A DNA stretch of 64,000 bases from Dyadobacter sp. (GCF_051859145.1 NZ_JBHYGF010000001.1:4032-68031); one strand, 5' to 3'. Positions 15,987-29,884 are shown, counted from the stretch's first letter. Notes: generated from the sequence alone by a model not told the origin. Made by a program: numbers and translations.

Positions 15987-15992
15987 CATCCC

Positions 15993-16970
15993 ATGGAAAT
16001 ACAGGATATAAGCCGAAAATGGCTTTTAATGAACCCTCCGAGCGGAAATGCATATGCATCTGTACGTATCGACAGTACATCCTTACCGGGAATGTTCCTT
16101 GGCTTGAATAGTGAGAGTAAAAGATGTCTTATTTTAAAGTTGCCCAAGGGGTATAATCCTGATTTTCAGTCGTCTGTCAAGCAGAACTTATCATTAAGTC
16201 TTTACGCTGAAAGTGGATGGGTTGTATTAACGCTGCTCGACGATAACTTTTATGACTTGTTTGACGATTTGATTTTCTCGATATATATTAAAATCCATTC
16301 AATGTCATCGGCTAGGATATATGTCACAGAATTGCTCAAAACGTATTACAAATGGAGTGAGTTTTTTAAGGATATGCATAACCAAAGCTTAGCAGACGAG
16401 ACAGTCAGGGGGCTATTTGGTGAGTTGACGGTTCTCAATGAAATGGTACTGGAATCTACATCTGCCGATATTAATGATGTTCTTAAATCCTGGAAAGGGC
16501 CATATGATACTAACCATGACTTTGTTAATGAAATCTGTGACAAAGAGGTTAAAACAAGACTTGAATCTGTTTTAAATATCAGAATAGCAAGTGAGCATCA
16601 ACTTCAGGCGGATATCGGCAAGAATCTTGAATTGGTTATTGTAACTCTGGTGTCAGATACGGTTAATGGACTGTCTTTACTCGACCTTGTCATAACAATC
16701 AGAGACATTGTAATGTCGAAACTTGGTGACTACACGATTGTTTTAAATGGCCTTTCACAAAAGGGCTTGAATGTCAGTTCTTTACAGGCCTATAAAGATT
16801 TGAGGTTTGTTCTTGTCAAAATCTCCAGCTATGACTGTTGTCAAGTTGAATTTCCCAAAATAGTCAGAAGTAATATCGCCGCGGCGGTAAGTTCTGTGTC
16901 ATATAAATTAAATGTAGAAGAGCTTACACCCTTTATCTTATCAGAAACGCTTTTTAATGGAAATAAATGA
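15993..16970 (+). CDS. PD-(D/E)XK motif protein (DUF4420-like)
   Basis: RGLFGEL, WKGP..HDF, EVKT and IASEHQL; canonical position after Z1. Confidence 0.85.
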   Translation: MEIQDISRKWLLMNPPSGNAYASVRIDSTSLPGMFLGLNSESKRCLILKLPKGYNPDFQSSVKQNLSLSLYAESGWVVLTLLDDNFYDLFDDLIFSIYIKIHSMSSARIYVTELLKTYYKWSEFFKDMHNQSLADETVRGLFGELTVLNEMVLESTSADINDVLKSWKGPYDTNHDFVNEICDKEVKTRLESVLNIRIASEHQLQADIGKNLELVIVTLVSDTVNGLSLLDLVITIRDIVMSKLGDYTIVLNGLSQKGLNVSSLQAYKDLRFVLVKISSYDCCQVEFPKIVRSNIAAAVSSVSYKLNVEELTPFILSETLFNGNK

Positions 16971-19344
16971 ATACCTGAAATACAGAGAGGATTTACTTGT
17001 TGATACAAAGGATGAAGATGGCTTTATCAGCGAATCCAGGTTCTTAGACCTGGTATTACCCTCTCTCAGTGATGCAAAACTTATTGATTCAGAAGATTAT
17101 ACAGATTGTTATCTGTATTTGAAACAGGATAATATAAAAATTAATGGATATCAGATTAATGAGTCAGAAGAACGACTTCAGATCTTCATAGTAAATGAAG
17201 AATCAATAGATCTGGGTAATACAGATGAAAATATACTCATATCTCAAAAGAGTTATTATGATTTTATTTTCGCAAAGGTGTTAAAATTTGTCCGGAAGGC
17301 CATTAAACGGCAATTAGATAACGAAATTCAGGATGCCCATCCGATTAAGCCACTGATCAATTTCATTGCGTCACCAACTTTGGGATTGGCACAAATTGAT
17401 GTTATTGAGCTGTTTCTTGTTTCAGCTACCGCCACTGTTGAAAAAAGAGGTGAAGCGCCCACACCTAAAATGTTAGATTTTGAAGATGAGGAAATACCTG
17501 TGGTTTTCTATGACCGGGAAAAAAATAGTTGCAAGAAAGATATTCACGTTTTCAAAAGGTTAATTGATTTAAATTTTCTTTACAACGTACTTATATCCCA
17601 GGGAAACAGGGAAGTTCTTGAGGTCGATTTCGAAAGACTTTTTCAGAAGGGTATCAATGCAATCAAGGCAGCTGATGAGGAGAACTTTGAATCTTACCTC
17701 TGTGTGTTACCAGCTAGTGTCCTTGCGGAGCTCTATAAGCGATATAGCACCCGGATGCTAGAAAAAAATGTCAGGTCTTTCCTTCAGTTTAAAGGTGTAA
17801 ACCAGGGAATCAGGGATACTATTCGTAAAAATCCCGAACATTTCATTGCATATAATAATGGTTTAACCATTACTGCAATTGGTGCAGAGATAGAGGAACT
17901 GGATGAGCGGACTGTTATCAAATCTCTTAAAGATTTTCAGATTGTTAATGGCGGGCAGACAACGGCCACTATATACTTTTCCCAGAAGGATGGCCTGGAC
18001 ATTAGTAAGGTGAAGGTCATGGCTAAAATCAACATTGCCAAAAACGCAAATGAGGAGGATCTGAATGAGCTCATAGGTAATATCAGCAGATACTCAAATG
18101 CACAATCAAAAGTTAGCAATGCTGATTTAAGGTCCCGCAATCAGCAGTTGATCAGACTAAAATCTATTTCTGAATCGACCCTAACGCCCTCGGGCAAGAA
18201 GTGGTTTTTTGAACGATTTAAAGGTGAGTTCAATACATTACTCAGAAAGGACCCGAAGGGAAAAACGAAGATCAATAATTTGTATCCTAAGGAGCGCCGG
18301 TTTACAAAGGAAGAACTAGCGAAATATTATATGTCCTGGGGACAAAGCCCTTACCTTGTAAAAAAAGGAGGGGACAAGATTTTCAGAACTTTTATCGAGG
18401 AGCTTTCACCGGAAAAAGCAAAGGAGCCAAATGTTAACAGAGATTTTTATGAACATGTCATAGCACGCCTCATTCTGTTTAAGGAGCTTGAAAAAATCTA
18501 TGGTGCCGGGAAGAATTCAATGGGCCAATTAAGATCAGCCGTTGTTCCCTACGCAATTTCCGTTCTGTATATAGCGACAACCGGTTCTAAATCAGTGAAC
18601 GATTTCGACTTGTTTAAAATTTGGCAGGCGGAGAAGCTCGACGACAAATTGAAAATGTTAATGACCGAGCTGATGCAGCTTGTAAATGAGCTTATTAAAA
18701 AATATTCTCTTAGTGAAGATTATGGCGAATATTCGAAACGAAAGGAGTTGTGGGACAGCATTGCTTTGTCTCGGGAGATCAAGCAATTTATAACTTCGTC
18801 ACAGTTCCTTGAGGTAACAAGGACCTATTCGATCTCACAGGAAGAACTGAAGAAACGCCTTTTAAAGAACCTGAAGGTCAAAGAGATAGATTTTGGCAAT
18901 TTGTACGATAATGCTAAAATCTTTTCCAGGGGAGCGGATTACTATAAAAAGCTTCTTATGCTATTGTTTGACAGGTTATCAGCGTCGCAAAAAAATAAGG
19001 TTGATCGATTGATCTATTGTATTAACCAGAAGGCTGATATTGACGAGGAACATTGTGAATTCGAAAGAGAGCTTATTCATAAAATCCGGGTTGAAAATCC
19101 TGATCTTTTTGACAGCATCCAATTTATGGAGAACGAGGTTTACGTGAAAGGGGTGGACAGCGTTGTGAAATTATACAATTCATGCATTGAGAATGGGTTA
19201 AACTTAACATCTGAATTTGAGAAACGCAGAGAAATCTCAAAGGCGAGAGGTCTAACAAAGTACTCTGTCTTCGACGATATTGCAAAGGGGCTATTACAAG
19301 GAAAATCTCCTTCAATAAAACAGATTTATTATACTAGTATTTGA
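16957..19344 (+). CDS. AIPR-family protein
   Basis: EKNVRSFLQ, FIAYNNGLTI, QIVNGGQTT, WFFERFKGEF; overlaps the upstream gene. Confidence 0.9.
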   Translation: MEINEYLKYREDLLVDTKDEDGFISESRFLDLVLPSLSDAKLIDSEDYTDCYLYLKQDNIKINGYQINESEERLQIFIVNEESIDLGNTDENILISQKSYYDFIFAKVLKFVRKAIKRQLDNEIQDAHPIKPLINFIASPTLGLAQIDVIELFLVSATATVEKRGEAPTPKMLDFEDEEIPVVFYDREKNSCKKDIHVFKRLIDLNFLYNVLISQGNREVLEVDFERLFQKGINAIKAADEENFESYLCVLPASVLAELYKRYSTRMLEKNVRSFLQFKGVNQGIRDTIRKNPEHFIAYNNGLTITAIGAEIEELDERTVIKSLKDFQIVNGGQTTATIYFSQKDGLDISKVKVMAKINIAKNANEEDLNELIGNISRYSNAQSKVSNADLRSRNQQLIRLKSISESTLTPSGKKWFFERFKGEFNTLLRKDPKGKTKINNLYPKERRFTKEELAKYYMSWGQSPYLVKKGGDKIFRTFIEELSPEKAKEPNVNRDFYEHVIARLILFKELEKIYGAGKNSMGQLRSAVVPYAISVLYIATTGSKSVNDFDLFKIWQAEKLDDKLKMLMTELMQLVNELIKKYSLSEDYGEYSKRKELWDSIALSREIKQFITSSQFLEVTRTYSISQEELKKRLLKNLKVKEIDFGNLYDNAKIFSRGADYYKKLLMLLFDRLSASQKNKVDRLIYCINQKADIDEEHCEFERELIHKIRVENPDLFDSIQFMENEVYVKGVDSVVKLYNSCIENGLNLTSEFEKRREISKARGLTKYSVFDDIAKGLLQGKSPSIKQIYYTSI

Positions 19345-19451
19345 AATCTTTTGTAGGCAACGTTGATAATAAATGGCATTGTGTAGTATGGCAGACATCC
19401 AACATCATTTTGGTGCGGCGATTCTACGATAATTAGTATTTTGATAAGTTA

Positions 19452-20468
19452 TTGGTTATGAAAGACTATCTTGCTCTCTTAGAGCAGCTTAAAAAAGAGA
19501 TTCGAGAAGCCCGGTTACGAGCGACGATTTCGGCTAACGTCGAAATGCTATCTCTCTATTGGAGAATTGGTAACATTATCTTACAGCAAGAAAAGCAAGA
19601 AGGGTGGGGACAGAAAGTTGTGTTACGATTGGTAACAGACCTGAAGGCGGAATTTCCAAATATGAAAAGCTTGTCGCCGCGTAACTTACGGTATATGAAG
19701 TCGTTCGCTGCGGCGTATCCTGATGAGTCAATTTTGCAAGTCACACTTGCAAAATTGACCTGGTACCATCATATTACCTTACTTAGTAAAGTAAAAGACC
19801 CAGACAAGCGCCTATTTTACATCACAGAAACAGCTCAGCAGGGCTGGTCTCGTGATGTTATGATCATGCAAATAGAATCCAATTATTCAGAACGTCATGG
19901 GAATACAGTATCAAACTTTGGGAGGGCACTTCCAGATCCTTTATCTGATCTAGCCCAACAGTCGATTAAGGATCCGTATTTGTTTGACTTTTTAACTTTG
20001 GCTGACGGTTATAAAGAACGTGATTTAGAAAACGGCCTGGTTGAACATATCACAAAATTTCTATTAGAGTTAGGCAAAGGGTTTGCTTTTGTCGGTCGGC
20101 AATATCCCATAGAGGTGTCTGATAGAGAATTTTTAATAGATCTGTTGTTTTACCATCTGAAACTCAGAGCTTATCTTGTCATCGAATTGAAAGCAGTTGA
20201 GTTTGAACCCGAATTTGTCGGAAAACTTAATTTTTACTTATCTGCTGTTGACGATCAGCTACGAACTGAACATGACAATCCAACAATTGGGCTTTTAATT
20301 TGTCGAAAGCGGGACAAACTGATGGCAGAGTACGCCTTACGCGATGTCAACAAGCCAATAGGAATCTCCGAATACAGAATATCTGAGGCGCTGCCTGATG
20401 ACCTTAAAAGCACACTCCCAACAATTGAAGAAATTGAAGAAAGATTGAAACAAGAAGGGAGTAGTTAA
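19452..20468 (+). CDS. YhcG/DUF1016 PD-(D/E)XK nuclease-domain protein
   Basis: LYWRIG, GWGQKVV..L..DL, KDPYLFDFL, IDLLFYH, IELK and DNPTIGLLIC. Confidence 0.92.
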   Translation: MVMKDYLALLEQLKKEIREARLRATISANVEMLSLYWRIGNIILQQEKQEGWGQKVVLRLVTDLKAEFPNMKSLSPRNLRYMKSFAAAYPDESILQVTLAKLTWYHHITLLSKVKDPDKRLFYITETAQQGWSRDVMIMQIESNYSERHGNTVSNFGRALPDPLSDLAQQSIKDPYLFDFLTLADGYKERDLENGLVEHITKFLLELGKGFAFVGRQYPIEVSDREFLIDLLFYHLKLRAYLVIELKAVEFEPEFVGKLNFYLSAVDDQLRTEHDNPTIGLLICRKRDKLMAEYALRDVNKPIGISEYRISEALPDDLKSTLPTIEEIEERLKQEGSS

Positions 20469-20980
20469 TACTCCGTATTTTTGATTCGGTAAATACTCAA
20501 TTCGGTACTTTCACGAATACTATCGGGATCGTGTTCAAAAGGTATTTCTTGTAATAGTTTTATATAGTCAGCTGGCAAATTGTGTTCATTTGCACCAGCT
20601 AAGATATGTGCTAGGTACCAATTATATGGCATAAGGTTTGGGTTAATTGATTCATAATCAGCATAGTATACTAACGCTGCGATCTCTGCTTTGTCTACAA
20701 GTACTTTTACTGATTTTTGGTTATATCCATTTCCCAAACCTTCAGCTTTGTCCAGCTCTTTTTTTTCAGAATCATCTATTTCAAATATCACACCCCAAAC
20801 TTCATCTGTTGTAATTCCTGTTTCAAAACAATCAGCCTTTGCTGATCCATCTTTTTTACTAATCTTTTGAAGTCGAAGTTGATGCCCCATAACTTTTCCA
20901 ATAGCAGAGAACTGAGCTGATGGGACACGATCTTTCAACCTATTCGTTGACATATTTGAGCCGTAAGAGAAAATTAACAT
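20465..20980 (-). CDS. Gamma-glutamylcyclotransferase (GGCT/AIG2-like) family protein
   Basis: FSYGSNM, VWGVIFEI, LDKAEG (catalytic Glu position), PYNWY..IL.GA.EH.LP.DY. Confidence 0.85.
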   Translation of the reverse strand: MLIFSYGSNMSTNRLKDRVPSAQFSAIGKVMGHQLRLQKISKKDGSAKADCFETGITTDEVWGVIFEIDDSEKKELDKAEGLGNGYNQKSVKVLVDKAEIAALVYYADYESINPNLMPYNWYLAHILAGANEHNLPADYIKLLQEIPFEHDPDSIRESTELSIYRIKNTEY

Positions 20981-21024
20981 GGATATGTATTTCGATAAAA
21001 TGGATTCTTCTGAATTACTAAATC

Positions 21025-21522
21025 TTAAGAAACTTGGAACATTTCAACACAATCACCCATTGGGAACACAAAAACTTTAATGCTGGGAGTGATTAGAGAT
21101 GGATTTCCGCCCAAAATGAGCAGTATAGGCTCCGGACAATTGTATTTTTTGTCTCTTGCAATACTTTTCATTTGTCTTCTATCCTGATAACTTGGAGTCG
21201 GTGTTGCAAACGGGTGAAAGTGCCATTCACCTAAATAATAAGTTTTCGATTCTTTAAATCTTCGATCTAAAATTGTTCGTAAACCGATGACTCCTCTTTC
21301 AAACCAGGTTTTGCCTGCTTTTGAATCTGGCGGTGGTCCCGTTATTGAAGATACCACTGCGCCTTTCAGACTTTCTGAATATCGACCTATCATTATTCCG
21401 CCAGTTTCTTTATTTCCGGCCTTAGTACATTGATATTGAAGATCGGTAATGATTGTTTGGGTCAGCATAACACCGAACCTTCGATCCGACGACAAAAATT
21501 CCATGCTAATTCCGGATAACAT
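21025..21522 (-). CDS. cap3: JAB/MPN isopeptidase, CBASS Cap3
   Basis: ETGGIMIG and GEWHFHP...PSYQD JAMM motif; overlaps cap2. Confidence 0.9.
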   Translation of the reverse strand: MLSGISMEFLSSDRRFGVMLTQTIITDLQYQCTKAGNKETGGIMIGRYSESLKGAVVSSITGPPPDSKAGKTWFERGVIGLRTILDRRFKESKTYYLGEWHFHPFATPTPSYQDRRQMKSIARDKKYNCPEPILLILGGNPSLITPSIKVFVFPMGDCVEMFQVS

Positions 21523-23287
21523 CTATTCCCTGAAACATATCACCATCTGGAGTATTAAGTACAATAAATGTGCTTGATGAGTCGCTGCCTACATAATATG
21601 CTTCAATTAATTTTATCGCCGCGGTGCTCATCATCCAGACATCATCCACCCTTGCTGGGAAAAGCGGATGCCAGCAGCCAATGCCCTCTCGTGGCAAGCT
21701 ACTGTCGCCTACAATTTCAATCTCCTGCTCTAACCACGGAGAAAATTCCTTTTTAAATTCAAATTCGAGATTCTCAGCCCCTTGATATTGATAATGAAAT
21801 AATCTTTTTGCGTTTAAACCCAGTGATATTGATACAAATTTTTTATCCGATCCACTTATGTGATTCGACAAATAATGGAGTGCTTGATCATTACCCGTTG
21901 CATCTATGATCAGATCAAACTGTTGTAAATAACTTTTGTCGGAGTCAAGTATCTGCTCGATATTACTTCTATTGAAACTTACTCTCGTTTCTGGGAATAT
22001 GTCATTCAATCTTTTTGATAGTTCCTGAGCCTTGCATTGGTCGAGTGATTTCAATGTCAATGTGTGCCGACTCATATTACCAAGTTCCAATTTATCCTTA
22101 TCCATGATTGTTAAGTTTCGGCAAGTGCCTCTAATAAGACATTCCCCTATCACTGACCCTACTGCTCCCGCTCCAATAAGCAGCACCTTGGCTTGGGACA
22201 ATTTGTCAGAATATTTCCCTCTTGCACTGATCGAGCCTATATTGCCATTTTGGGAATCCATCCACTCAATTTTTTTGTTTTTGTGAAACGCTCTGTTTGC
22301 TAATTCTTGAGCTTCTTGACCTGGTCGAAAACCTTTTAATGTACCTTTTACTGGGAGTGAGATTGGCTGCCAATGAATTTGAAAGGGTTCTTCTCCAATC
22401 TTCTCTGGAACAGGAAATCCTAAAATCAAACAGTCTGCGGATTGTCTATACCCTTTGATAAATATATCAGTTATTATTTTTTGAAAATCAACATTGTGTT
22501 CATTTCCAATGTGATAAAGCCTTTCCCAAGTTGCAGGGGCTTCCCACGGACATGATACTGGGATAAAGTCAATTAGTAACCAAACTATGTTTTTAGACTT
22601 AGCTTTATGATTATTAATTGAGTCGTTCCAAGTGTTGGAGTATAAGACCTTTCCGCAAAAATCTTTAAAGACGGTAATAAAGAAGCTGCTTTTTCCAGGA
22701 TGGATAATAGCTTCCGCTTGGCCTGACTTTTTGTTCGTTGATATTAACTTCGAATAAGTCGCTTCATCTTCAGAGTAATAATATTTATCAGTAAACGAAA
22801 GCGGAAAGGAAGGAAGTTCAAAAAGTTGGCCATTCAAAGATAGCTGATCATTTATTGCTGCTTCCAACCACATCTTACAGCGATAGACATGCCAAAAAAG
22901 ACGTTCACTTGCCTCTGTTGGTTCTGAATTAAACCCTCTAAGTGAAAAAGATCCGAATGTAGTATTCAAGCATAAATCTCCGCTTCTCCACTTATTTTGA
23001 GTTTGAATATTATTATGATTCTGATGTTGAAATGTTAAGGCAATACCTTTTTCTTTAGCGGGGTAAGTGTGAATCTTGCCCCACGGATAGTTTTCAGGTA
23101 TGGTTGCATACCATTCTGTTGAATCAGGTATACTGTATGTGTTTGCTCCAGCTGAAATGTTCAACCGGAATTTTAAGATCCAACCTGCGCCAATTTCATC
23201 CCACACTAAATCTTCTAACAATTCGTATCCGGTAATTTCCTCCAGGTTTCTTCTGGCAAGCAGCAAGTCTTTGGTTGGGGCTATCAT
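21506..23287 (-). CDS. cap2: E2-E1 (ThiF) fusion, CBASS Cap2
   Basis: N-terminal E2-like region with GDLCL; C-terminal ThiF IGAGAVGS, IDATG and GCWHPLFP. Confidence 0.9.
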   Translation of the reverse strand: MIAPTKDLLLARRNLEEITGYELLEDLVWDEIGAGWILKFRLNISAGANTYSIPDSTEWYATIPENYPWGKIHTYPAKEKGIALTFQHQNHNNIQTQNKWRSGDLCLNTTFGSFSLRGFNSEPTEASERLFWHVYRCKMWLEAAINDQLSLNGQLFELPSFPLSFTDKYYYSEDEATYSKLISTNKKSGQAEAIIHPGKSSFFITVFKDFCGKVLYSNTWNDSINNHKAKSKNIVWLLIDFIPVSCPWEAPATWERLYHIGNEHNVDFQKIITDIFIKGYRQSADCLILGFPVPEKIGEEPFQIHWQPISLPVKGTLKGFRPGQEAQELANRAFHKNKKIEWMDSQNGNIGSISARGKYSDKLSQAKVLLIGAGAVGSVIGECLIRGTCRNLTIMDKDKLELGNMSRHTLTLKSLDQCKAQELSKRLNDIFPETRVSFNRSNIEQILDSDKSYLQQFDLIIDATGNDQALHYLSNHISGSDKKFVSISLGLNAKRLFHYQYQGAENLEFEFKKEFSPWLEQEIEIVGDSSLPREGIGCWHPLFPARVDDVWMMSTAAIKLIEAYYVGSDSSSTFIVLNTPDGDMFQGIDVIRN

Positions 23288-24406
23288 TTATGCAAATCTC
23301 CCTCCGGATGGCTCAGTAGGTCCGCTTCTTTCAGAATATCCCCCCTTAACCGAAGGTTCTGGCGCATCTGGAAAGGCTTTCCCAAAAAGAATTTTCCAAT
23401 ATTTCACCTTATCATAGGTGGTAGTTGCATCCAACGCTAATCTTGCCGTTTGCGCTGCATCTTTCACATAATCATAAAAAGCGTTGAAATCTTCTACAGA
23501 TACTCGCTTCCAAACATTGTGATCGGGCACGCCTCTATCTGAAAGAACTGGGACAATTTCCAATGAACGATAGGCAGCATACTTAGAAATAATTTTTTCA
23601 AAAGTTTCTGTAATGCCTTGCGCTACGGATGTGATATGATCAGGACAACAATCTCCAATCATGTGTTCGATGGGATACCCTTTCGGGTACTTTAAGTCTG
23701 TTAGTTTCAATACCCGCCACCATTTGATCGCCTTTACGACATTAATGTAGTGCAGGTTTGTTGATTTGTTTTTTTCTCTGGTCCATCGGATCTGTTCCAA
23801 AGGATCAGTTTCTACCCATTCATTTGCCTCACGATCTGGTATCCAAAGAGGTTCTAACTTCCAATCAGCCTGTTTACGAATGGACTCTAACAAGAAAAGA
23901 CTTCGTTGTTGTCCCTCTTTTGGTTCAATGTAATTTTCGACAAGTTTCCACTCCATATCATCTTCGAGCATCAAATTGGTTATAACACTGGCTGATCGTA
24001 ACCTTGACTGTTCAGCCTCAGAAGGAGCTGAGGTAACAACGATATCCAAGTCAACATAAGACAGCTCAATCCCAATTGAACGCCCCTGTATTTCGTATTT
24101 TCCTTTGTAATGTTTTTCAACAAATGGTATAAATTTCTTTATCGCTTCCTTGGGGTTCGTATTGTGGCGATCAATCTTTGTTACAACAATTACGTCTACG
24201 TCAGCGCGCTTACCGTTATTTGGCCGAGTTGCAGTAGAGCGCCGGTAACTTCCTTGCAAAAATGTACTTACAATAATTTTAGATAATTCCGGATCAGCGG
24301 CAAGTCTCTCACGGAGCGTCTTATGGCCTGTTTTTAGATCATCAATCTGAGAAGATGTGAGCCTAATATTCTTCAGGAAGTCATTGAAATAGGATGGAAT
24401 TGGCAT
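23288..24406 (-). CDS. cdnD: cGAS/DncV-like nucleotidyltransferase, CdnD-like
   Basis: FLQGSYRRSTATRP...ADVDVIVV and GRSIGIELSYVDLDIV strongly recall Enterobacter CdnD; C-terminus GGRFA. Confidence 0.88.
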   Translation of the reverse strand: MPIPSYFNDFLKNIRLTSSQIDDLKTGHKTLRERLAADPELSKIIVSTFLQGSYRRSTATRPNNGKRADVDVIVVTKIDRHNTNPKEAIKKFIPFVEKHYKGKYEIQGRSIGIELSYVDLDIVVTSAPSEAEQSRLRSASVITNLMLEDDMEWKLVENYIEPKEGQQRSLFLLESIRKQADWKLEPLWIPDREANEWVETDPLEQIRWTREKNKSTNLHYINVVKAIKWWRVLKLTDLKYPKGYPIEHMIGDCCPDHITSVAQGITETFEKIISKYAAYRSLEIVPVLSDRGVPDHNVWKRVSVEDFNAFYDYVKDAAQTARLALDATTTYDKVKYWKILFGKAFPDAPEPSVKGGYSERSGPTEPSGGRFA

Positions 24407-24411
24407 AATAT

Positions 24412-25935
24412 TTAGTTAGGGAATGTTAAAACTGGTTGATAATCACCCGCTTTTGTAGCGGGAAAGTTAAATTCATACAAAACAATGTTGCCCAATACGG
24501 CTGCGTATTGACCGAAGTAGAATGCGAAAGCGTTGGGGGCAGCCATAAATACGTGAATCTTACCACTGCGCTCATGGATTGTTCTCATATTCTGAATTTG
24601 CCTTGCAATGGTCTGGGCTACATTCAGGACATGAGTCCCGTCTTTAAGTGCTAAATGTGAAGGTCCTGGGTTTATTTTTGCGTCGATTATTCGTCCCACT
24701 GTCGGCAATTGTTCGGATACAAAAGATTCTACATCTATCAGGACGTCATGAGTTATACTGATAGCGAGTGCGATTTCATTTGCACTTGCATTCATTTGTT
24801 TTTGATCAAAGAGCACAGTATCCGTAGCAAACTGTTCTTCAAAATGAGGCTCCCAGAGTATTTTTGAATTTTTTGTTTTTTGAATTATAGATGCTTCCAC
24901 ACCCAATTTTGGGTTTAGAGAGTAGCCAACCGCAAAAGCAAGTGAAAGGTGTGTGTCCAGAGAAAAAGTAATTTTCTTTTCTTTTCCTGTTACGGTTTGT
25001 ATGAACGTTCTAAGATCGGGCAAAACATGACTTTGCCAAAGAAGAGAATCTTTTATTTTCCGGTCATTATAATGATGAGCTAAGCATAAGCAATCGATAT
25101 TTTCCTTTTCAAAGTTTTCCGTTCCAGCTAAAAAAGTTCTAATCCCAACTCGGTGAAAGTATTCCGGCGATTGTGGCGCGAATAGCCCTTCCTCTTTACA
25201 CAGTTGCCGAAAACGGTTTAGTGTAAATTCATTGCGATTTTGACCATGAAGTCTGGTAATAAGACCATCGTATTTATTTGAAACCTGAGTTTCAGGTATA
25301 GGGTACAAACCAGCAAGTTGCAAGCTGGGATTTATTATATCTAAAATATTATGGATATCGGAAAAATTTGATTTTATCCGGAGGGAAGACAAACAGTTGT
25401 AGAGCTCTTCATCCTTGTCAAATCCGAGATGTTCTCGCCAAAGTTTTCGCACCTTTCCCATTTCACTGTCATCAGTCTTTCCCTGCATAAGAACATCTAA
25501 ACGTATTTTGTCACCCACACCTAAGAGTTTTCCGATTACGTTATTAGAATCAATGCCCCATGTATTTACCAAAATATATCTGGCTTTTTGCGACGGTAGG
25601 GTCTTCAATTGCTGATTTTTTAGCTTTTGAAGTAGAGAAATGGACGTCGCACCGATAAATGCAGGATCTATCAGGGCTTCAACACTAAAGAAGTTACTCT
25701 TATCTACATGATGCTTGACCTGATAAAAATCGACGTCGACAAGGTCGCCCGTACTTTTATCTAAGATTGGTGGATCATAATTCACAACAACATCGTCGAA
25801 GCCTGTAACATTATTTGCTTCCCATACGATAGAAGCAATATTATTATCAGGTACTAACATCCTTGCCGCCTGCCACCAAAAGATGCTCTCTTGATAAAAT
25901 ATCCCTTGGGTAATTGCAATTATAGAATTCGCCAT
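24412..25935 (-). CDS. cap4: Endonuclease-SAVED CBASS effector, Cap4-like
   Basis: N-terminal GFDDVVV...DFYQVK nuclease motif; C-terminal SAVED with DTHLSLAFAVG and HVFMAAPNAFAFYFGQ. Confidence 0.9.
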   Translation of the reverse strand: MANSIIAITQGIFYQESIFWWQAARMLVPDNNIASIVWEANNVTGFDDVVVNYDPPILDKSTGDLVDVDFYQVKHHVDKSNFFSVEALIDPAFIGATSISLLQKLKNQQLKTLPSQKARYILVNTWGIDSNNVIGKLLGVGDKIRLDVLMQGKTDDSEMGKVRKLWREHLGFDKDEELYNCLSSLRIKSNFSDIHNILDIINPSLQLAGLYPIPETQVSNKYDGLITRLHGQNRNEFTLNRFRQLCKEEGLFAPQSPEYFHRVGIRTFLAGTENFEKENIDCLCLAHHYNDRKIKDSLLWQSHVLPDLRTFIQTVTGKEKKITFSLDTHLSLAFAVGYSLNPKLGVEASIIQKTKNSKILWEPHFEEQFATDTVLFDQKQMNASANEIALAISITHDVLIDVESFVSEQLPTVGRIIDAKINPGPSHLALKDGTHVLNVAQTIARQIQNMRTIHERSGKIHVFMAAPNAFAFYFGQYAAVLGNIVLYEFNFPATKAGDYQPVLTFPN

Positions 25936-26063
25936 AATTAGTAAACTTTCAACAAACTGTATAGATACAACAAAAATTTCGTTATATATTCGTCATGAAT
26001 GGAACATATTGCTATAATAATAGGTTCATTATGACGATTATTTCGTATTAAAAAGTACATTTT

Positions 26064-27398
26064 ATGTTGATTCGTTTCATTGCCGAAAACTTTCTGTCCT
26101 TCAACGAACGTACCGAGTTCAACATGCTGACCGGAGACCTTAGGCGTTTACCTGATCATGTCTACCGTTCCAATAAAATAGATATACTAAGAAGTGCAGT
26201 TATCTATGGAGCGAATGGAGCGGGAAAATCAAATTTGATTAACGCTATTAAGATTCTAAGTGAGATTGTCTCAGATGGGGTATTGTCGATTTCTTCTGAC
26301 GATACGTGTTTTAGGTTATCCGATCAAGGCGACCGCCCTTCAATGCTGGAAATTCATTTCATAACGGAAGGAGTGGCGTACAGTTATAGCTTAGCGTTTA
26401 TTAAAGACTTGATAATTAGGGAATCGCTAAATTTATTGAATTTTGGCAAAAAGGAAGATAGTCTCATATTTGACAGGACTATTAACAAGCAGGGAAAAGT
26501 TAATATCAAACTTGCACCTAAATACCTTAAAACACGTAAGGATAAGCTTCTGATACAAATTTATGAAGAAGACGTACTTGATCCGGAGATGACGTTCATT
26601 ACTCTTGTAAAGGAAAAGAAATATCAAGAGATAACATCGGCTTATAATTGGTTGGAAAGCGGATTATTAATCATCTTTCCGGGAATGCAGTACGGCGGTC
26701 TGGTAAGTAATTTTATAAATGACGAGGAATTTAAGGTCTTTACCAATGAGATTATCTCAGGATTTGATACAGGCGTTGACCAAATTGATATTCAAACAAT
26801 AGATTTTGAAGCTTTTTTTGGTGAGGACAATGCACTAGAAAAGGAAAAGGTATTGAGATCGATCAAAACAGGTGAAACTGAACGGGTTGGAGATAATAGA
26901 AATGCCTTAGCGATGATGGAAAATGGTAAACCGGTGGTTAAAAAGGCGGTTTCTTATCATTCAAGTTCAGCAGGAACAAAGGTTAAATTTGAACTGTTTG
27001 AGGAGTCAGATGGCACTCTGCGGCTTCTAGATTTTATCCCATTCCTTTATATGTTGGAGAAATACCCTGTTACTGTAATCGTTGATGAGATTGATCAAAG
27101 TATTCATCCCGTTATGCTCAAAGAATTAGTAACGAAGATTCAGAATAATCCGAAAAAGGTAGGACAGTTGATTTTTACCACGCATGAAGCAAATCTTCTT
27201 GATACTGATTTATTTCGCCAGGATGAAATTTGGTTTGTCGAAAAAAATAAAACTGGAGCAAGCCATTTCTATCAATTGCTTGAATTTGACACTCGTTCCG
27301 ATCTGGATATTCGAAAGGGGTATTTATCTGGTAAATTTGGTGCAATCCCTTTTCTTGGCAACATTAAAGACTTGCATTGGGCATCCGGGAATAATTAA
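26064..27398 (+). CDS. AAA_21/ABC-type ATPase (AbiLi/RloA-like)
   Basis: FIAENFLSF, Walker A GANGAGKSN, ESDGTLRL signature, Walker B IVDEID, FTTH, terminal GKFGAIP. Confidence 0.88.
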   Translation: MLIRFIAENFLSFNERTEFNMLTGDLRRLPDHVYRSNKIDILRSAVIYGANGAGKSNLINAIKILSEIVSDGVLSISSDDTCFRLSDQGDRPSMLEIHFITEGVAYSYSLAFIKDLIIRESLNLLNFGKKEDSLIFDRTINKQGKVNIKLAPKYLKTRKDKLLIQIYEEDVLDPEMTFITLVKEKKYQEITSAYNWLESGLLIIFPGMQYGGLVSNFINDEEFKVFTNEIISGFDTGVDQIDIQTIDFEAFFGEDNALEKEKVLRSIKTGETERVGDNRNALAMMENGKPVVKKAVSYHSSSAGTKVKFELFEESDGTLRLLDFIPFLYMLEKYPVTVIVDEIDQSIHPVMLKELVTKIQNNPKKVGQLIFTTHEANLLDTDLFRQDEIWFVEKNKTGASHFYQLLEFDTRSDLDIRKGYLSGKFGAIPFLGNIKDLHWASGNN

Positions 27399-27431
27399 CA
27401 ACTGGGTAATCTTTGGCACCACTAAGTGCCT

Positions 27432-27875
27432 CTATGTAAAATAATTATATATATAAATATCTTTTTTATCGTTGTACGATGCTAATTGAGAGGCAACTAG
27501 CTCATCCCAAAATCTAGTTGCTTCCGTGCTTCGAAACTCAGGATCATCAACCATCTCTCCCGGCTTATTGGAGCTCGAAGTGACTGCTTTATTAAACATT
27601 TCCTGTACATACGTAATCATTCTGGCTCCAATGCGCTTGCCTTTAAGGTGTATATGATCGTTATGGGCTAATTCAATGATACGAATACTTTCATTTAGCT
27701 CAATAACAGTGAATTGATACGAGCCTGCTTTAAGATTTGAATCAAAAATCTCAAAACAATGTTTCGGCCATACCCCTTCATCTGTTCCAAGCAGTGGTTT
27801 TTCCTTTAAGGAATATTCTACGTTAAACTTGTATTCTTCTCCATCACGCCCGATCGTGTATATCTGAGATTCCAT
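27432..27875 (-). CDS. Hypothetical protein, possible GNAT fold
   Basis: 147 aa; HLKGKRIGARMI resembles GNAT motif A and EATRFWDEL resembles the A..F(Y/W) motif B. Confidence 0.45.
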   Translation of the reverse strand: MESQIYTIGRDGEEYKFNVEYSLKEKPLLGTDEGVWPKHCFEIFDSNLKAGSYQFTVIELNESIRIIELAHNDHIHLKGKRIGARMITYVQEMFNKAVTSSSNKPGEMVDDPEFRSTEATRFWDELVASQLASYNDKKDIYIYNYFT

Positions 27876-27926
27876 AAGCGGTTCCTTTAGGTAGTTGCGG
27901 ATTATTATTCATTTTCTTAAAATTCC

Positions 27927-27972
27927 AAAAGCCCTCCCCCTCACTGACGAGATATCAATGAGGGAGAGGGCT
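27927..27972 (-). terminator. Intrinsic terminator downstream of the tRNA-like gene
   Basis: GCCCTCTCCCTCA...TGAGGGGGAGGGC stem (one mismatch) followed by TTTT on the minus strand. Confidence 0.7.
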
Positions 27973-27983
27973 AACACTATTTG

Positions 27984-28069
27984 TGCGGAGGAAGAGGGAT
28001 TCGAACCCTCAGACCTTTAACAGTCTACGGTATTTCAAGCCGCTGCCTTACCATTCGAGCCATTCCCAA
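27984..28069 (-). pseudogene. Degenerate tRNA-Ser(TGA)-like gene
   Basis: Perfect T-arm GAGGG-TTCGAAT-CCCTC, long variable arm AGAC..GTCT, 3' TTCCTCCGCA end, CTTGAAA in the anticodon region; acceptor stem pairs only 5 of 7 and the anticodon stem is shifted. Confidence 0.75.
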
Positions 28070-28102
28070 TAGAATCTTGATGTTCAGTTGGCAACAGATA
28101 TC

Positions 28103-28110
28103 CAAAGTTA
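28103..28110 (-). promoter_or_regulatory. Bacteroidota -7 promoter element (TAACTTTG)
   Basis: Exact TAnnTTTG match about 33 nt upstream of the tRNA-like sequence; no clear -33 TTTG. Confidence 0.45.
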
Positions 28111-28336
28111 AGGTTTTACTAAATATTTTAATAATTCTCTACTTGAATGATGTTAGAATATAGTCGAATTTTAAACTGACTCACCAAATAATATTTTGTT
28201 GTATAACAGAGATTATGTTCATGGCAGAGGTCATTTCCGACCTGCGGTGCAAGGTGATCGGGTAAGAACCCAGGACATATAATAATCTACTTTACCAATA
28301 ATGTGATTTTACTACCTGGCGAATATTGACCAGGTC

Positions 28337-28364
28337 AAGCTGCTCCAATTTGGGAGCAGCTTTT
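28337..28364 (+). terminator. Hairpin terminator
   Basis: AAGCTGCTCC-aatttg-GGAGCAGCTT followed by TT; may also stop the convergent SRAP transcript. Confidence 0.6.
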
Positions 28365-28398
28365 CATAATTCCACAACGTTTCAACTGTTTAGATTTA

Positions 28399-29232
28399 CT
28401 AAAAAAGTGATGGCTGCGCTGGTGGAGTGGGATTGTCCAATGCAACCAGCTCATCGTAAATAAATGGAACAGTGGGATCTTCGGCTTTTAAAAAGTCTTT
28501 TTGAACGCTACATGCTTCCATTAAGTCCTGGGGGAGCTGGAAAGTTGCAAGCTCGGTAATCCGGTCTTCCGGCAAGTCGTCCATCATCCATTCCCACGAT
28601 AAATTGTCGGGCAGTATGGTTGGCATTCTCTTCTTGGAATTGTGGATTTTTGCCATTAGTGGATTTGCCTCGGTAGTTACCAGACTTACCGTTTCAACTG
28701 TTTCACCAGTATCCTGATCTGTCCATGGTTGCCAGATACCTGCAACGTAAAAGTAAGGTTGGTCCTTCACACCAATATAATGAGGATATTTATCGGCTGT
28801 TTTTTTCTTCTCGCCGGTGCGTTTATTGACTCCGTACTCATGTCTCCATTCATAGAAACCTGAGGATAAGATAAGGCATCTGCGCTCAAGGGCGGCTTCA
28901 CGGTAAATTTTATCAGGGAACAAAAGCTCTTCCCCCTTGGCATTCTGGGTATCGTAACCCTTCTGCCAGGTTCCATCTTTTTTCTTATAGCCTTTCCTGA
29001 ACTTTTCAACCTGAGAGCGGTTCTTTACGTATTTAGGTAAAAAACCCCATTCCATCTGGACAATATCAAAGTTGTCGCGTGTGTATCGCGGTTTTAAGAC
29101 AGCGATGTTTCCAAATTCGAATGCATGCGTAACATTGCGGTTTAGAAATTCGTAATCTTTAACAGCTTTTTCGAGTTGCATTAACTGTATGAATTCGGCT
29201 TTTGTCACTTTTTGACCATTGTAATAGCACAT
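28399..29232 (-). CDS. SOS response-associated peptidase (SRAP/YedK/HMCES family)
   Basis: N-terminal MC (catalytic Cys2), RCLILSSGFYEW, AGIW, IHNSKKRMP. Confidence 0.93.
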   Translation of the reverse strand: MCYYNGQKVTKAEFIQLMQLEKAVKDYEFLNRNVTHAFEFGNIAVLKPRYTRDNFDIVQMEWGFLPKYVKNRSQVEKFRKGYKKKDGTWQKGYDTQNAKGEELLFPDKIYREAALERRCLILSSGFYEWRHEYGVNKRTGEKKKTADKYPHYIGVKDQPYFYVAGIWQPWTDQDTGETVETVSLVTTEANPLMAKIHNSKKRMPTILPDNLSWEWMMDDLPEDRITELATFQLPQDLMEACSVQKDFLKAEDPTVPFIYDELVALDNPTPPAQPSLF

Positions 29233-29234
29233 GC

Positions 29235-29486
29235 TTACTGGGTTTTAGTGTTTTTAAAATGCTCAACAATTTTCGCGCCAATTGGGATTGCTTCCGGTTG
29301 TCTTCCTTCGGGGATTGACATCCAAACCTTACTGCCGTCAAAAACTCTTGATCTGCTGATCATCAATGATTTTCTTCCATCAGGAAAGTCCAGCTTGAAA
29401 ACAGTTCTACCTGCCATATCCATCACTTTGATGGCAACCATCATTCCTTCGAATTCTACCTCAAAGTCATCGGCCTGAAACAACAT
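29235..29486 (-). CDS. Small hypothetical protein coupled to SRAP
   Basis: 83 aa, stops 2 nt before the SRAP start; WMSIPEGRQ motif. Confidence 0.6.
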   Translation of the reverse strand: MLFQADDFEVEFEGMMVAIKVMDMAGRTVFKLDFPDGRKSLMISRSRVFDGSKVWMSIPEGRQPEAIPIGAKIVEHFKNTKTQ

Positions 29487-29597
29487 ATTTCAATTTTTTA
29501 AACTTAACATATAATTATATAGAGGATTATCTAATCAGTCAATGAGGCCAGTCGAGTTCCATGTGCATGATACCGGCAGTGCTAACCAGGTATACTA

Positions 29598-29774
29598 TTA
29601 CTTTCCTAAATAATCCCTCACTGCCTTTGCCGAACTCCCCACTTCTTTGACGGCTTCGGTTAATTTTTCTTTGGTGATACCCAGAGCCTGAGTCCAATAA
29701 GCAACTTCATAATCTTCGCTTAAATTAATACGGCTGCTGTCAGCAGGTCCTTGTTTGGTTTTGTCGTCTGCCAT
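29598..29774 (-). CDS. DUF3606-family small protein (missed by the ORF track)
   Basis: Manual translation MADDKTKQGPADSSRINLSEDYEVAYWTQALGITKEKLTEAVKEVGSSAKAVRDYLGK (58 aa). Confidence 0.85.
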   Translation of the reverse strand: MADDKTKQGPADSSRINLSEDYEVAYWTQALGITKEKLTEAVKEVGSSAKAVRDYLGK

Positions 29775-29884
29775 GTCTGTAATGGTTTGGTTGATACCAT
29801 TTTACATAAAAATCCATACCCGACAAGGCTGGCACGTGCTTTGATGTGTTTTGCTCACCTTTAAATGCTATTACATACAGAAAG

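What the first reader, a model, noticed from the sequence alone, without database searches (positions are those of the whole stretch)
27927..28110. tRNA-Ser-like RNA with a broken 5' half but intact T-arm, variable arm, promoter element and terminator
Seen (minus strand): TTGGGAATGGCTCGAATGGTAAGGCAGCGGCTTGAAATACCGTAGACTGTTAAAGGTCTGAGGGTTCGAATCCCTCTTCCTCCGCA. The 3' half is canonical. The acceptor stem has two terminal mismatches, and the anticodon arm has a one-base register shift (GCGG-CTTGAAAT-ACCG against the usual GCGGT-CTTGAAA-ACCG). A TAACTTTG -7 element lies upstream and a strong terminator downstream. It sits at the edge of the defence island. Inference: either an att-like scar or decayed cargo tRNA, or a still-expressed tRNA mimic (for example a decoy for tRNA-targeting toxins or nucleases).
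Basis: partly seen in the sequence, partly recalled or inferred. Interest (0 to 1): 0.62.

Follow-up and report, generated by a model that had tools for sequence, protein, structure and literature searches.

The report
Crippled serine-tRNA relic at island edge
A real but damaged copy of a serine transfer-RNA gene, still with its own promoter and terminator, sits in a 0.86-kb leftover block at the edge of a decaying anti-phage island on a Dyadobacter plasmid. It is most likely a recombination relic of the kind left where mobile islands dock at tRNA genes, not a new kind of RNA.

Summary
Window 27985-28069 (-) is a class-II, serine-type tRNA-like gene. ARAGORN calls it tRNA-Phe(GAA). Rfam tRNA gives 29.4 bits against a cut-off of 29, whereas normal tRNA-Ser(UGA) scores 58-59. 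A TAACTTTG element lies 33 nt upstream, a spacing typical of this genome's tRNA genes. A -35.9 kcal/mol hairpin follows.

The defects are real. Pairs 1-72 and 2-71 are broken. The anticodon loop reads UUGAAAU, closed by a C31.A39 mismatch. The D arm is not broken.

The gene is a singleton. I found no copy in 59 relatives, in two pattern scans of 185,579 species genomes, or in a related Dyadobacter plasmid. It is also a mosaic: the variable and T arms are Cytophagales-like, while the D arm and anticodon arm are of a rare type.

It lies between two breakpoints. On one side AbiLi has lost its RloB partner. On the other, 100% identity to another Dyadobacter species starts at 28217.

A related CBASS+AbiL island sits beside a tyrosine integrase and tRNA-His. 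Similar integrases sit 3' of tRNA-Ser(UGA) in 8 of 23 relatives' loci.

Best reading (0.55): a transcribable relic that no longer decodes, left from island docking or cargo. No integrase or second att copy remains.

The parts
28103..28110 (-). TAACTTTG, a Bacteroidota-type -7 promoter element, 33 nt upstream of the tRNA-like 5' end
   Evidence: Read directly. Spacing and motif match 19 of the 29 other tRNA genes in the same genome; the chance rate is about 3%.
27985..28069 (-). Class-II (serine-type) tRNA-like gene. The acceptor has only 5 pairs. The D arm is intact. The anticodon loop is UUGAAAU closed by C31.A39 (anticodon GAA). The variable arm, T arm and G73 are canonical. No CCA is encoded.
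   Evidence: ARAGORN. Rfam 29.4 bits against 58-59 for normal tRNA-Ser. Alignment to host and relatives' tRNA-Ser(UGA).
27918..27972 (-). Intrinsic-terminator-like hairpin (19-bp stem in the fold) followed by UUUUGGAAUUUU
   Evidence: Inverted repeat I2. Fold energy -35.9 kcal/mol, z = -6.5. The simple consensus scan missed it because it has only 4 U in a row.
27432..27875 (-). 147-aa gene of an unnamed family. In a relative this gene is followed by an overlapping DUF4238 gene. That partner is absent here.
   Evidence: No Pfam or PADLOC hit. 54 HMMER relatives. Contexts L098 and L100. The AlphaFold model is unusable, pLDDT 39.
26064..27398 (+). AbiLi-type AAA_21 ATPase without its RloB/AbiLii partner. 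Homology to related islands ends at about 27358.
   Evidence: PADLOC AbiLi 4.6e-79. Relatives always have an overlapping RloB or a 314-aa partner gene. blastn to L084 covers window 21101-27358 only.
21025..25935 (-). Type II CBASS operon (JAB, E1/E2-like ThiF, SMODS cyclase, SAVED-nuclease effector), the core of the defence island
   Evidence: Pfam and PADLOC. The same CBASS+AbiLi pairing is seen in L084 and L087.
28181..28217 (+). 36-nt intergenic repeat (ACCAAATAATATTTTGTTGTATAACAGnnnTTATGT) that ends exactly at the island/backbone breakpoint
   Evidence: Recurs at 89-97% identity in many Dyadobacter genomes and on own contigs C584 and C219. There is one copy in the window.
28217..29800 (.). 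Start of plasmid backbone (SRAP peptidase, then LigD and xth) shared at 100% identity with another Dyadobacter species (G031:C3)
   Evidence: A LigD/xth block is also present in the D. chenhuakuii plasmid NZ_CP099631.

Best explanation
This is a degenerate, mosaic descendant of a mobile-element-type tRNA-Ser(UGA) gene.

It is stranded in a block of about 860 bp (27360-28216) between two recombination breakpoints. This is the end of a plasmid-borne defence island where related islands carry their integrase next to the tRNA gene they dock at.

Shown:
- It is tRNA-derived and has a typical tRNA-gene promoter spacing and a strong terminator.
- It lacks acceptor pairs 1-72 and 2-71, and its anticodon register reads GAA instead of UGA.
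- It has no counterpart in any relative searched.
- Its neighbours on both sides are truncated modules.

Inferred:
- It was once the tRNA gene at, or carried with, an integrative island, or a cargo tRNA of phage or mobile type. The integrase and the partner genes were later deleted.
- The RNA is probably still made. With a 5-pair acceptor stem lacking G1-C72 and G2-C71, it should be a poor substrate for end processing, for SerRS and for EF-Tu, so it no longer decodes and is selectively neutral.
- At the DNA level its T-loop-to-3'-end segment could still serve as a weak landing site for islands that target tRNA-Ser.
For: 1. tRNA ancestry with past selection. The variable arm GACTGTTAAAGGTC is identical to that of a Dyadobacter tRNA-Ser(UGA) (L057), and the T arm matches at 16 of 17 positions. 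Differences from Cytophagales tRNA-Ser keep pairing: 5-68 A-U to G-C, a variable-stem U-A to A-U, 12-23 A-U to U.G, and 50-64 G.U to A-U (my reading).

2. Present defects. The Rfam score is half that of normal tRNA-Ser and excludes the outer acceptor. The cloverleaf (-19.3 kcal/mol) is less stable than the minimum-energy fold (-23.2), and the fold z-score is -0.1.

3. Singleton. No full-length match in 59 relatives, in 60 genomes of the genus, in two pattern scans of genome contigs, in one metagenome scan, or in plasmids and phages. A related Dyadobacter plasmid has no tRNA.

4. Mosaic. The D arm is absent from tRNAs of 400 Bacteroidota genomes. The C31.A39 anticodon arm is absent from 200 genomes of the class. 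That arm is present in 8 phage tRNA-Ser(UGA) genes and in L023.

5. Breakpoints. AbiLi lacks RloB and homology stops at 27358. The 147-aa gene lacks its usual downstream partner. Identity to G031 starts at 28217.

6. Island logic. L084 has CBASS-AbiLi-partner-integrase-tRNA-His in the same order and orientation. Integrases 50-59% identical to that one (six loci; two further loci match at 25-27%) lie just 3' of tRNA-Ser(UGA) in 8 of 23 loci of relatives. These islands are about 89-94 kb with a 22-nt att core, the last 22 nt of the tRNA.

7. Partial or hybrid tRNA genes at island borders that tRNA finders call as tRNAs are a documented class (PMC9897764; PMC4383910 abstract).
Against: - No tyrosine integrase is on the 73-kb contig.
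- No second copy of the 3' segment exists in the window or the genome.
- The terminator and 3' flank are not homologous to the integrase-proximal arm shared by the G006 and L084 islands.
- A 22-nt core crossover alone does not explain why the D and anticodon arms differ in origin from the variable arm.
- The promoter at the proper distance, the very strong terminator, and a clean 7-nt loop with U33 and A37 are more order than plain decay predicts.
- L023 shares the D arm and the C31.A39 arm, has a good acceptor stem and a non-serine anticodon (UAU). This hints at a real family of anticodon-switched serine-type tRNAs, of which this could be a working member.
- With only one sequence, selection cannot be measured.
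Confidence: 0.55

Rival explanations
1. It is a working non-canonical tRNA. It has a serine-type body (long variable arm, G73) with anticodon GAA. SerRS would charge it regardless of anticodon, and it would put Ser at Phe codons. Alternatively it acts as a toxic or regulatory RNA of the defence island, like allo-tRNAs and other missense tRNAs on mobile elements. The weak acceptor stem would then be an attenuator. A 9-nt-loop frameshifting reading belongs under this heading too.
For: - The promoter spacing is typical of real tRNA genes and the terminator is strong.
- The loop keeps U33 and A37. C31.A39 is tolerated in 8 phage tRNA-Ser(UGA) genes.
- L023 has the same D arm and anticodon stem, an acceptor with 6 of 7 pairs, 40.9 bits and anticodon UAU, and lies next to an excisionase-like gene and a transposase-like gene.
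- Serine-type tRNAs with non-serine anticodons near toxin-antitoxin systems and transposons are described, and some insert Ser at Leu codons in E. coli (PMC5389517).
Against: - Pairs 1-72 and 2-71 are broken. By established knowledge, G2:C71 is a SerRS identity element in E. coli and a closed 1-72 pair is needed for EF-Tu.
- The score is half that of normal tRNA-Ser, and the cloverleaf is not the favoured fold.
- No homologue carries the same features anywhere searched.
- No antisense or partner element lies nearby.
- The neighbours are truncated modules.
- Most allo-tRNA(UAU) variants tested were themselves inactive.
Confidence: 0.15
2. It is kept as DNA, not as RNA. It would be a plasmid-borne pseudo-attB, a landing pad at which integrative islands that target the 3' end of tRNA-Ser(UGA) insert. 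This would explain why defence cargo accumulates beside it.
For: - The att core of the Dyadobacter tRNA-Ser islands is the last 22 nt of the tRNA. The candidate's equivalent segment TTCGAATCCCTCTTCCTCCGC differs from it at 3 positions.
- 8 of 23 tRNA-Ser(UGA) loci are occupied by such integrases.
- The candidate sits exactly at the island's border with the right polarity.
Against: - There is no integrase and no displaced 22-nt fragment at any other place on the contig, so there is no sign that the present island entered this way.
- The island arm next to the tRNA-like is unrelated to the known island arms.
- Three mismatches in a 22-nt core may abolish recombination.
Confidence: 0.12
3. It is an expressed tRNA mimic that acts as a decoy or sensor for tRNA-targeting nucleases or toxins of phages, plasmids or defence systems.
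For: - It is probably transcribed.
- It lies in a defence island, next to an AbiLi-type ATPase whose wider relatives (AriA of PARIS in PADLOC) work with a tRNA-cleaving partner. That last point is my knowledge, not tested here.
Against: - No nuclease partner is present; RloB/AriB is missing.
- The tRNA-like is not found beside AbiLi relatives (no tRNA-like in L084-L086, the only AbiLi loci scanned; gene tables) or beside relatives of the 147-aa gene.
- It is not conserved anywhere.
Confidence: 0.05

Closest known systems
tRNA genes and gene fragments at genomic-island junctions (regenerated target and displaced fragment; Islander database PMC4383910; mis-called tRNA fragments PMC9897764; Williams 2002 on integrase sublocations, cited from memory)
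   Same: It lies at the border of an island, with the tRNA 3' end facing the cargo. A related island has integrase plus tRNA in that position. The composition is a mosaic, and tRNA finders give a low score and the wrong isotype.
   Different: No integrase and no direct repeat remain. The piece is a nearly full-length tRNA, not the 22-nt displaced fragment seen in Dyadobacter. Its 5' two-thirds are not those of any chromosomal tRNA-Ser found. It is on a plasmid.
Bacterial tRNA-Ser(UGA): the Cytophagales chromosomal type and the phage type with C31.A39
   Same: Class-II architecture, G73, 3-bp D stem, and a variable arm and T arm nearly identical to Dyadobacter tRNA-Ser(UGA). The anticodon stem GCGGC/ACCGU with C31.A39 matches that of phage tRNA-Ser(UGA) (for example L073).
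   Different: The loop is UUGAAAU instead of UUUGAAU or CUUGAAA, so the anticodon reads GAA. Two terminal acceptor pairs are broken. The D-loop sequence is rare. The score is 29 bits against 58-59.
allo-tRNAs (Mukai et al. 2017, PMC5389517)
   Same: Serine-type identity features with a non-serine anticodon (a Phe anticodon was seen once there). Association with mobile elements and toxin or defence genes. Many members carry stem-destabilising changes and are inactive in translation.
   Different: Allo-tRNAs are defined by 8/4 or 9/3 acceptor/T geometry and a long D stem with a tetraloop. This gene has 7/5 geometry (5 of the 7 acceptor positions paired) and an ordinary D arm, so it is not a member.
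NBU2-type mobilisable elements of Bacteroides that integrate at the 3' end of tRNA-Ser genes (from memory, not tested)
   Same: Bacteroidota; a tyrosine integrase that targets the 3' end of tRNA-Ser.
   Different: No such element or integrase is present here, and relatedness of the Dyadobacter integrases to IntN2 was not examined.

Membership tests
Canonical bacterial tRNA (Rfam RF00005) / tRNA-Ser | Covariance-model score in the range of genuine tRNAs | tested here: inconclusive
   29.4 bits against a cut-off of 29, as a local match to model positions 4-67 only. Genuine tRNA-Ser(UGA) scores 57.8-59 bits.
Canonical bacterial tRNA (Rfam RF00005) / tRNA-Ser | Seven-pair acceptor stem with closed 1-72 and 2-71 pairs | tested here: not met
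   U1.C72 and U2.C71 are mismatched and G3.U70 is a wobble; only 5 pairs form. None of the 29 other tRNAs of the genome was called with such a stem (structures shown for three).
Canonical bacterial tRNA (Rfam RF00005) / tRNA-Ser | Serine anticodon in a 7-nt loop on a 5-pair stem | tested here: not met
   In the canonical register the anticodon is GAA (Phe). UGA is present only one base out of register. The 31-39 pair is C.A, a variant also seen in 8 phage tRNA-Ser(UGA) genes.
Canonical bacterial tRNA (Rfam RF00005) / tRNA-Ser | Long variable arm, G73, and a T arm with GTTCGAATC | tested here: met
Canonical bacterial tRNA (Rfam RF00005) / tRNA-Ser | Mature, CCA-tailed, aminoacylated RNA | not testable with these tools
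No CCA is encoded, which is also true of most host tRNA genes.
allo-tRNA (PMC5389517) | 8/4 or 9/3 acceptor/T-stem geometry | tested here: not met
   The T stem has 5 pairs (GAGGG/CCCUC). No 8- or 9-pair acceptor can be drawn (definition).
allo-tRNA (PMC5389517) | Long D stem with a tetraloop, as in tRNA-Sec | tested here: not met
   The D stem has 3 pairs and the loop has 10 nt with GG (definition).
allo-tRNA (PMC5389517) | Serine identity (long V arm, G73 or U73) with a non-serine anticodon | tested here: met
tDNA junction of an integrative genomic island | Tyrosine integrase gene adjacent to the tRNA 3' end | tested here: not met
   No PF00589 match on contig C1. tblastn with eight integrases against the window found nothing.
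tDNA junction of an integrative genomic island | Direct repeat of the tRNA 3' segment at the far end of the island | tested here: not met
   No second copy with up to 3 mismatches in the window. Nothing longer than 12 nt on the contig.
tDNA junction of an integrative genomic island | Position at the island border, with homologous islands docked at tRNA genes | tested here: met
   The breakpoint is 148 nt away. L084 has CBASS-AbiLi-partner-integrase-tRNA-His. Integrases lie 3' of tRNA-Ser(UGA) in 8 of 23 loci, with 22-nt att repeats.
Missense tRNA paired with an adjacent antisense small RNA (earlier AI notes of this scan, unverified) | Neighbouring sequence complementary to an arm of the tRNA | tested here: not met
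   No inverted repeat longer than 11 nt between the tRNA-like and 27300-28700.

The most novel reading that the evidence does not exclude
The gene and the metagenomic tRNA L023 could belong to an undescribed lineage of mobile, 7/5-geometry serine-type tRNAs. The lineage would derive from the C31.A39 form of tRNA-Ser(UGA), with anticodons switched to A/U-rich sense codons (GAA for Phe, UAU for Ile). The Dyadobacter copy would be a deliberately attenuated mistranslating or abortive-infection RNA, kept in a defence island with its own promoter and terminator.
Probability: 0.1. Interest if true: 0.7.

Novelty: new member of a known kind. Interest (0 to 1): 0.27.

Why it matters
It matters mainly for annotation. 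ARAGORN would list this as a second tRNA-Phe, and the tRNA model passes it at threshold, although it is almost certainly not a phenylalanine tRNA and probably not a working tRNA.

It also records how a plasmid defence island in Dyadobacter was assembled and is decaying. CBASS+AbiL modules travel on tRNA-docking integrative islands. Here the integrase end has collapsed to a tRNA relic, an AbiLi gene without its partner, and half of another two-gene module.

If the minority reading were right, it would add a serine-type tRNA with a Phe anticodon, outside the allo-tRNA geometry, to the short list of natural missense tRNAs on mobile elements.

Tried and rejected
1. Second att copy or integrase. 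A 24-mer of the 3' end with up to 3 mismatches in the window, and blastn-short over the whole genome, found only the host tRNA-Ser(UGA) and chance 12-16-mers. PF00589 finds eight integrases in the genome, none on this contig.

2. Homologues. BLAST in 59 relatives and 60 genomes of the genus, two pattern scans of genome contigs, two of metagenome contigs, two of viral contigs, and the plasmid and phage collections. Only ordinary tRNA-Ser 3' halves turned up, plus L023 and L024, which were selected for the same D arm. The viral D-arm hit L025 lies inside a coding sequence.

3. D-arm pattern with up to 2 mismatches in 400 Bacteroidota genomes. The 16 hits outside the own genome are at about the control level, and none is in a tRNA.

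4. Short secondary BLAST hits in relatives (G041, G042, G048, G049, G056) were checked as possible att remnants. All are ordinary tRNA-Ser isoacceptors.

5. Antisense partner, as in earlier AI notes of this scan: none.

6. The 36-nt repeat as a transposon end. There is only one copy in the window. In chromosomes it lies between convergent metabolic genes, so there is no evidence of mobility.

7. Linkage of the tRNA-like to AbiLi or to the 147-aa gene. Relatives of both show no such tRNA.

8. Structure of the 147-aa protein. pLDDT is 39 and unusable, so no fold search was run.

9. Simple crossover models between a C31.A39-type and a canonical anticodon loop do not reproduce the observed loop. 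The anticodon arm is wholly of the C31.A39 type, and differs from it only by TTTGAAT becoming TTGAAAT.

11. The supplement of the allo-tRNA paper is not held.

Full report
**What is there**

On the minus strand at 27985-28069 lies an 85-nt tRNA-like gene. ARAGORN finds it as the only tRNA in the window and calls it tRNA-Phe(GAA) with a long variable arm. Rfam's tRNA model matches at 29.4 bits, just over the cut-off of 29. It does so only as a local match to model positions 4-67, leaving out the outer acceptor pairs.

For comparison, genuine tRNA-Ser(UGA) genes score 57.8-59 bits. These include the host's own (contig C64), one from a relative, and one from a Paracoccus plasmid.

The host assembly has 616 contigs and is 94% complete. 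It holds 29 other tRNA genes, including a normal tRNA-Ser(UGA) and a normal tRNA-Phe(GAA).

**Anatomy**

- The acceptor is UUGGGAA/UUCCUCC. U1.C72 and U2.C71 do not pair, G3.U70 is a wobble, and pairs 4-7 are standard.
- The D arm has a 3-bp stem (GCU/GGC), as in bacterial serine tRNAs, and a GG-containing loop.
- The anticodon stem is GCGG/CCGU.
- Between its strands lie nine bases, CUUGAAAUA. ARAGORN takes the last reading. It keeps U33 and A37 and gives anticodon GAA.
- The variable arm, the T arm (GAGGG-UUCGAAU-CCCUC) and the discriminator G73 are canonical. No CCA is encoded.
- The cloverleaf is not the favoured fold: -19.3 against -23.2 kcal/mol, and the fold z-score is -0.1.

**Signals around it**

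TAACTTTG (28103-28110) lies 33 nt upstream of the 5' end. In this genome 19 of the 29 other tRNA genes have TAnnTTTG 12-58 nt upstream. The motif occurs 0.3-0.5 times per kb per strand, so a chance hit in that span is about 3%.

Downstream, a hairpin with a 19-bp stem (-35.9 kcal/mol, z = -6.5) is followed by UUUUGGAAUUUU. The gene therefore looks transcribable.

**Ancestry**

tRNA-Ser(UGA) is almost invariant across Cytophagales. From the variable arm onward the candidate is close to it:
- The variable arm GACTGTTAAAGGTC is identical to that of one Dyadobacter species (L057).
- The T arm matches at 16 of 17 positions.
- The 3' end TCCGC is as in G035.

Several differences keep pairing: 5-68 A-U to G-C, a variable-stem U-A to A-U, 12-23 A-U to U.G, and 50-64 G.U to A-U. 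So the sequence evolved for some time as a structured RNA.

The D arm and the anticodon arm are of another type.
- The D-arm 19-mer is not found in any tRNA of 400 Bacteroidota genomes.
- It is also absent from 185,579 species genomes in class-II spacing.
- In 241 million metagenome records it occurs in two tRNAs.
- One is L023, a class-II tRNA with the same xCGGC/ACCGx stem, C31.A39 and anticodon UAU. It has 6 of 7 acceptor pairs and scores 40.9 bits. It comes from a Bacteroidota- or Ignavibacteria-like contig and lies next to an excisionase-like gene and a transposase-like gene.
- The other is L024, a class-I tRNA with anticodon UGC and no G3.U70.

The C31.A39 arrangement is absent from 200 genomes of the class. 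It is present in 8 phage tRNA-Ser(UGA) genes, for example GCGG-C-UUUGAAU-A-CCGC in L073.

Against that type, the candidate's loop differs only by UUUGAAU becoming UUGAAAU. That is one T fewer and one A more, or two substitutions, and it moves the anticodon from UGA to GAA. The gene is thus a mosaic: a mobile- or phage-type 5' two-thirds joined to a Cytophagales-type 3' third.

**It is a singleton**

I found no full-length relative in any of the following:
- 59 related genomes or 60 genomes of the genus;
- Genome contigs, by two patterns;
- Metagenome contigs, by the loop pattern;
- the plasmid and phage collections.

A related Dyadobacter plasmid shares the LigD/xth block but has no tRNA at all.

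**Surroundings**

To the left lie a type II CBASS operon (21025-25935) and an AbiLi-type ATPase (26064-27398). In every relative of this ATPase that I looked up, an overlapping RloB (AbiLii) or a 314-aa partner follows. Here none does. Nucleotide homology to the closest island (L084, 68.5%) covers window 21101-27358 only.

The 147-aa gene (27875-27432, convergent with AbiLi) has no Pfam or PADLOC match, but it has 54 HMMER relatives. In one relative an overlapping DUF4238 gene follows it, and in another an overlapping downstream gene follows. That partner is also missing here. So a deletion appears to have removed the ends of two convergent two-gene modules.

To the right, sequence 100% identical to another Dyadobacter species (G031:C3) starts at 28217 and runs on at 96% to at least 34000. 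Nothing from 14001-28216 is present in that genome, and its own left flank has no match here.

The tRNA-like, its promoter and terminator, and the 147-aa gene therefore form a block of about 860 bp between two breakpoints. The right breakpoint coincides with the end of a 36-nt intergenic repeat found in many Dyadobacter genomes.

**Why an island junction is the best frame**

In L084 the gene order is DUF4145, CBASS, AbiLi, 314-aa partner, tyrosine integrase, tRNA-His, then chromosomal genes. The tRNA and integrase are on the same strand, and the tRNA 3' end faces the island. The candidate has the same place and polarity relative to CBASS+AbiLi.

Integrases lie directly 3' of tRNA-Ser(UGA) in 8 of the 23 relatives' loci I held. 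Six of them are 50-59% identical to the L084 integrase over its full length, and two match at 25-27%.

In two genomes the islands can be delimited. They are about 94 kb (G006) and 89 kb (G017), bounded by a direct repeat of the last 22 nt of the tRNA. The regenerated tRNA there is followed by an island-borne terminator and then the integrase. That layout matches the candidate's (tRNA, terminator, next gene).

Hybrid or partial tRNA genes at such borders that tRNA finders report as tRNAs are a documented source of mis-annotation (PMC9897764; PMC4383910).

**What does not fit**

- The contig has no integrase.
- There is no second copy of the 3' segment.
- The candidate's terminator is unrelated to the arm that the G006 and L084 islands share.
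- A crossover in the 22-nt core does not explain the foreign D and anticodon arms.

The GGA-to-UUG difference at positions 1-3 has two possible explanations. One is a breakpoint at the very 5' end of the gene. The other is docking of an island whose core did not match the target's acceptor. I cannot tell which.

A pure 'decayed phage or mobile cargo tRNA' origin is equally compatible with the data. I treat both origins as one explanation: a recombination relic that no longer decodes.

**Function**

With a 5-pair acceptor stem lacking G1-C72 and G2-C71, I expect poor end maturation, poor serylation and poor EF-Tu binding. This follows from established knowledge of E. coli SerRS identity and of the initiator-like 1-72 mismatch, and was not tested here. 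The likely outcome is a transcribed but inert RNA.

The alternatives, with my odds:
- A working serine-type tRNA reading Phe codons, or a toxic or regulatory RNA in the manner of allo-tRNAs (PMC5389517): 0.15.
- A DNA-level landing pad for tRNA-Ser-targeting islands: 0.12.
- A decoy for tRNA-targeting nucleases: 0.05.

It is not an allo-tRNA by definition, because its geometry is 7/5 and its D arm is ordinary.

Earlier AI notes of this scan describe missense serine-type tRNAs paired with antisense small RNAs. I looked for such a partner and found none.

**Verdict**

The finding is an ordinary kind of object with some unusual details: the mosaic body, the GAA register, and the kinship with L023. 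Interest is low to moderate.

Noticed in passing
L023 6293-6382 (-) (metagenome contig Ga0214472_10013993): A class-II, serine-type tRNA (G73, long variable arm, 40.9 bits) with anticodon UAU, C31.A39 and the same rare D arm as the candidate. It lies directly upstream of an HTH_17 excisionase-like gene and a weak DDE-transposase-like gene on a Bacteroidota- or Ignavibacteria-like chromosome fragment. It may be a mobile missense tRNA or another island-junction hybrid.
   Followed up: partly
L024 949-1023 (+) (WNFJ01234261.1): A class-I tRNA with anticodon UGC (Ala) but acceptor GACCGGG/CCCGGUC, so without the G3.U70 alanine identity pair. It has the same rare D arm and hairpins on both sides, like a stand-alone cassette (44.6 bits).
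   Followed up: no
window 28181-28217 (+); also own contigs C584:37879-37917 and C219:2108-2143, and many Dyadobacter genomes: A 36-nt conserved intergenic repeat, ACCAAATAATATTTTGTTGTATAACAGnnnTTATGT, present at 1-3 copies per genome and often between convergent genes. Here it ends exactly at the breakpoint between island and shared plasmid backbone. Its function is unknown.
   Followed up: partly
window 26064-27398 (+): The AbiLi-type ATPase is intact (444 aa) but has lost its obligatory RloB/AbiLii partner, so the AbiL system of this island is probably dead.
   Followed up: yes
window 27432-27875 (-); L098 771-2175: The 147-aa protein belongs to an unnamed family of about 140-150 aa proteins (54 HMMER relatives). 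In L098 it forms an overlapping two-gene operon with a DUF4238 protein. Neither protein is in PADLOC. This is a candidate two-gene module of defence islands.
   Followed up: partly
L010, L011, L013, L019, L021, L022, L008, L014; G006:C1:2896913-2990697; G017:C47:288078-376902: tRNA-Ser(UGA) is a hot spot for integrative islands in Dyadobacter. A tyrosine integrase lies just 3' of it in 8 of 23 loci. The islands are about 89-94 kb, bounded by a 22-nt repeat of the tRNA 3' end. G024 has three further 15-nt repeats within 140 kb, which may mark tandem islands.
   Followed up: partly
L044 281-375 (Vibrio phage VspSw_1, MH925094.1 about 45255-45349): An unannotated tRNA-Ser(UGA)-like gene with a normal anticodon arm, T arm and CCA but an odd, long D region. 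ARAGORN does not call it. It is conserved in several T5-like Vibrio phages.
   Followed up: no
L084 9989-10063 and 8520-9740 (ERZ1029167 NODE_2579): A complete example of the mobile form of this island: DUF4145, type II CBASS, AbiLi plus a 314-aa partner (not RloB by Pfam), tyrosine integrase, tRNA-His. Its terminator after the tRNA resembles the one in the Dyadobacter tRNA-Ser islands.
   Followed up: partly
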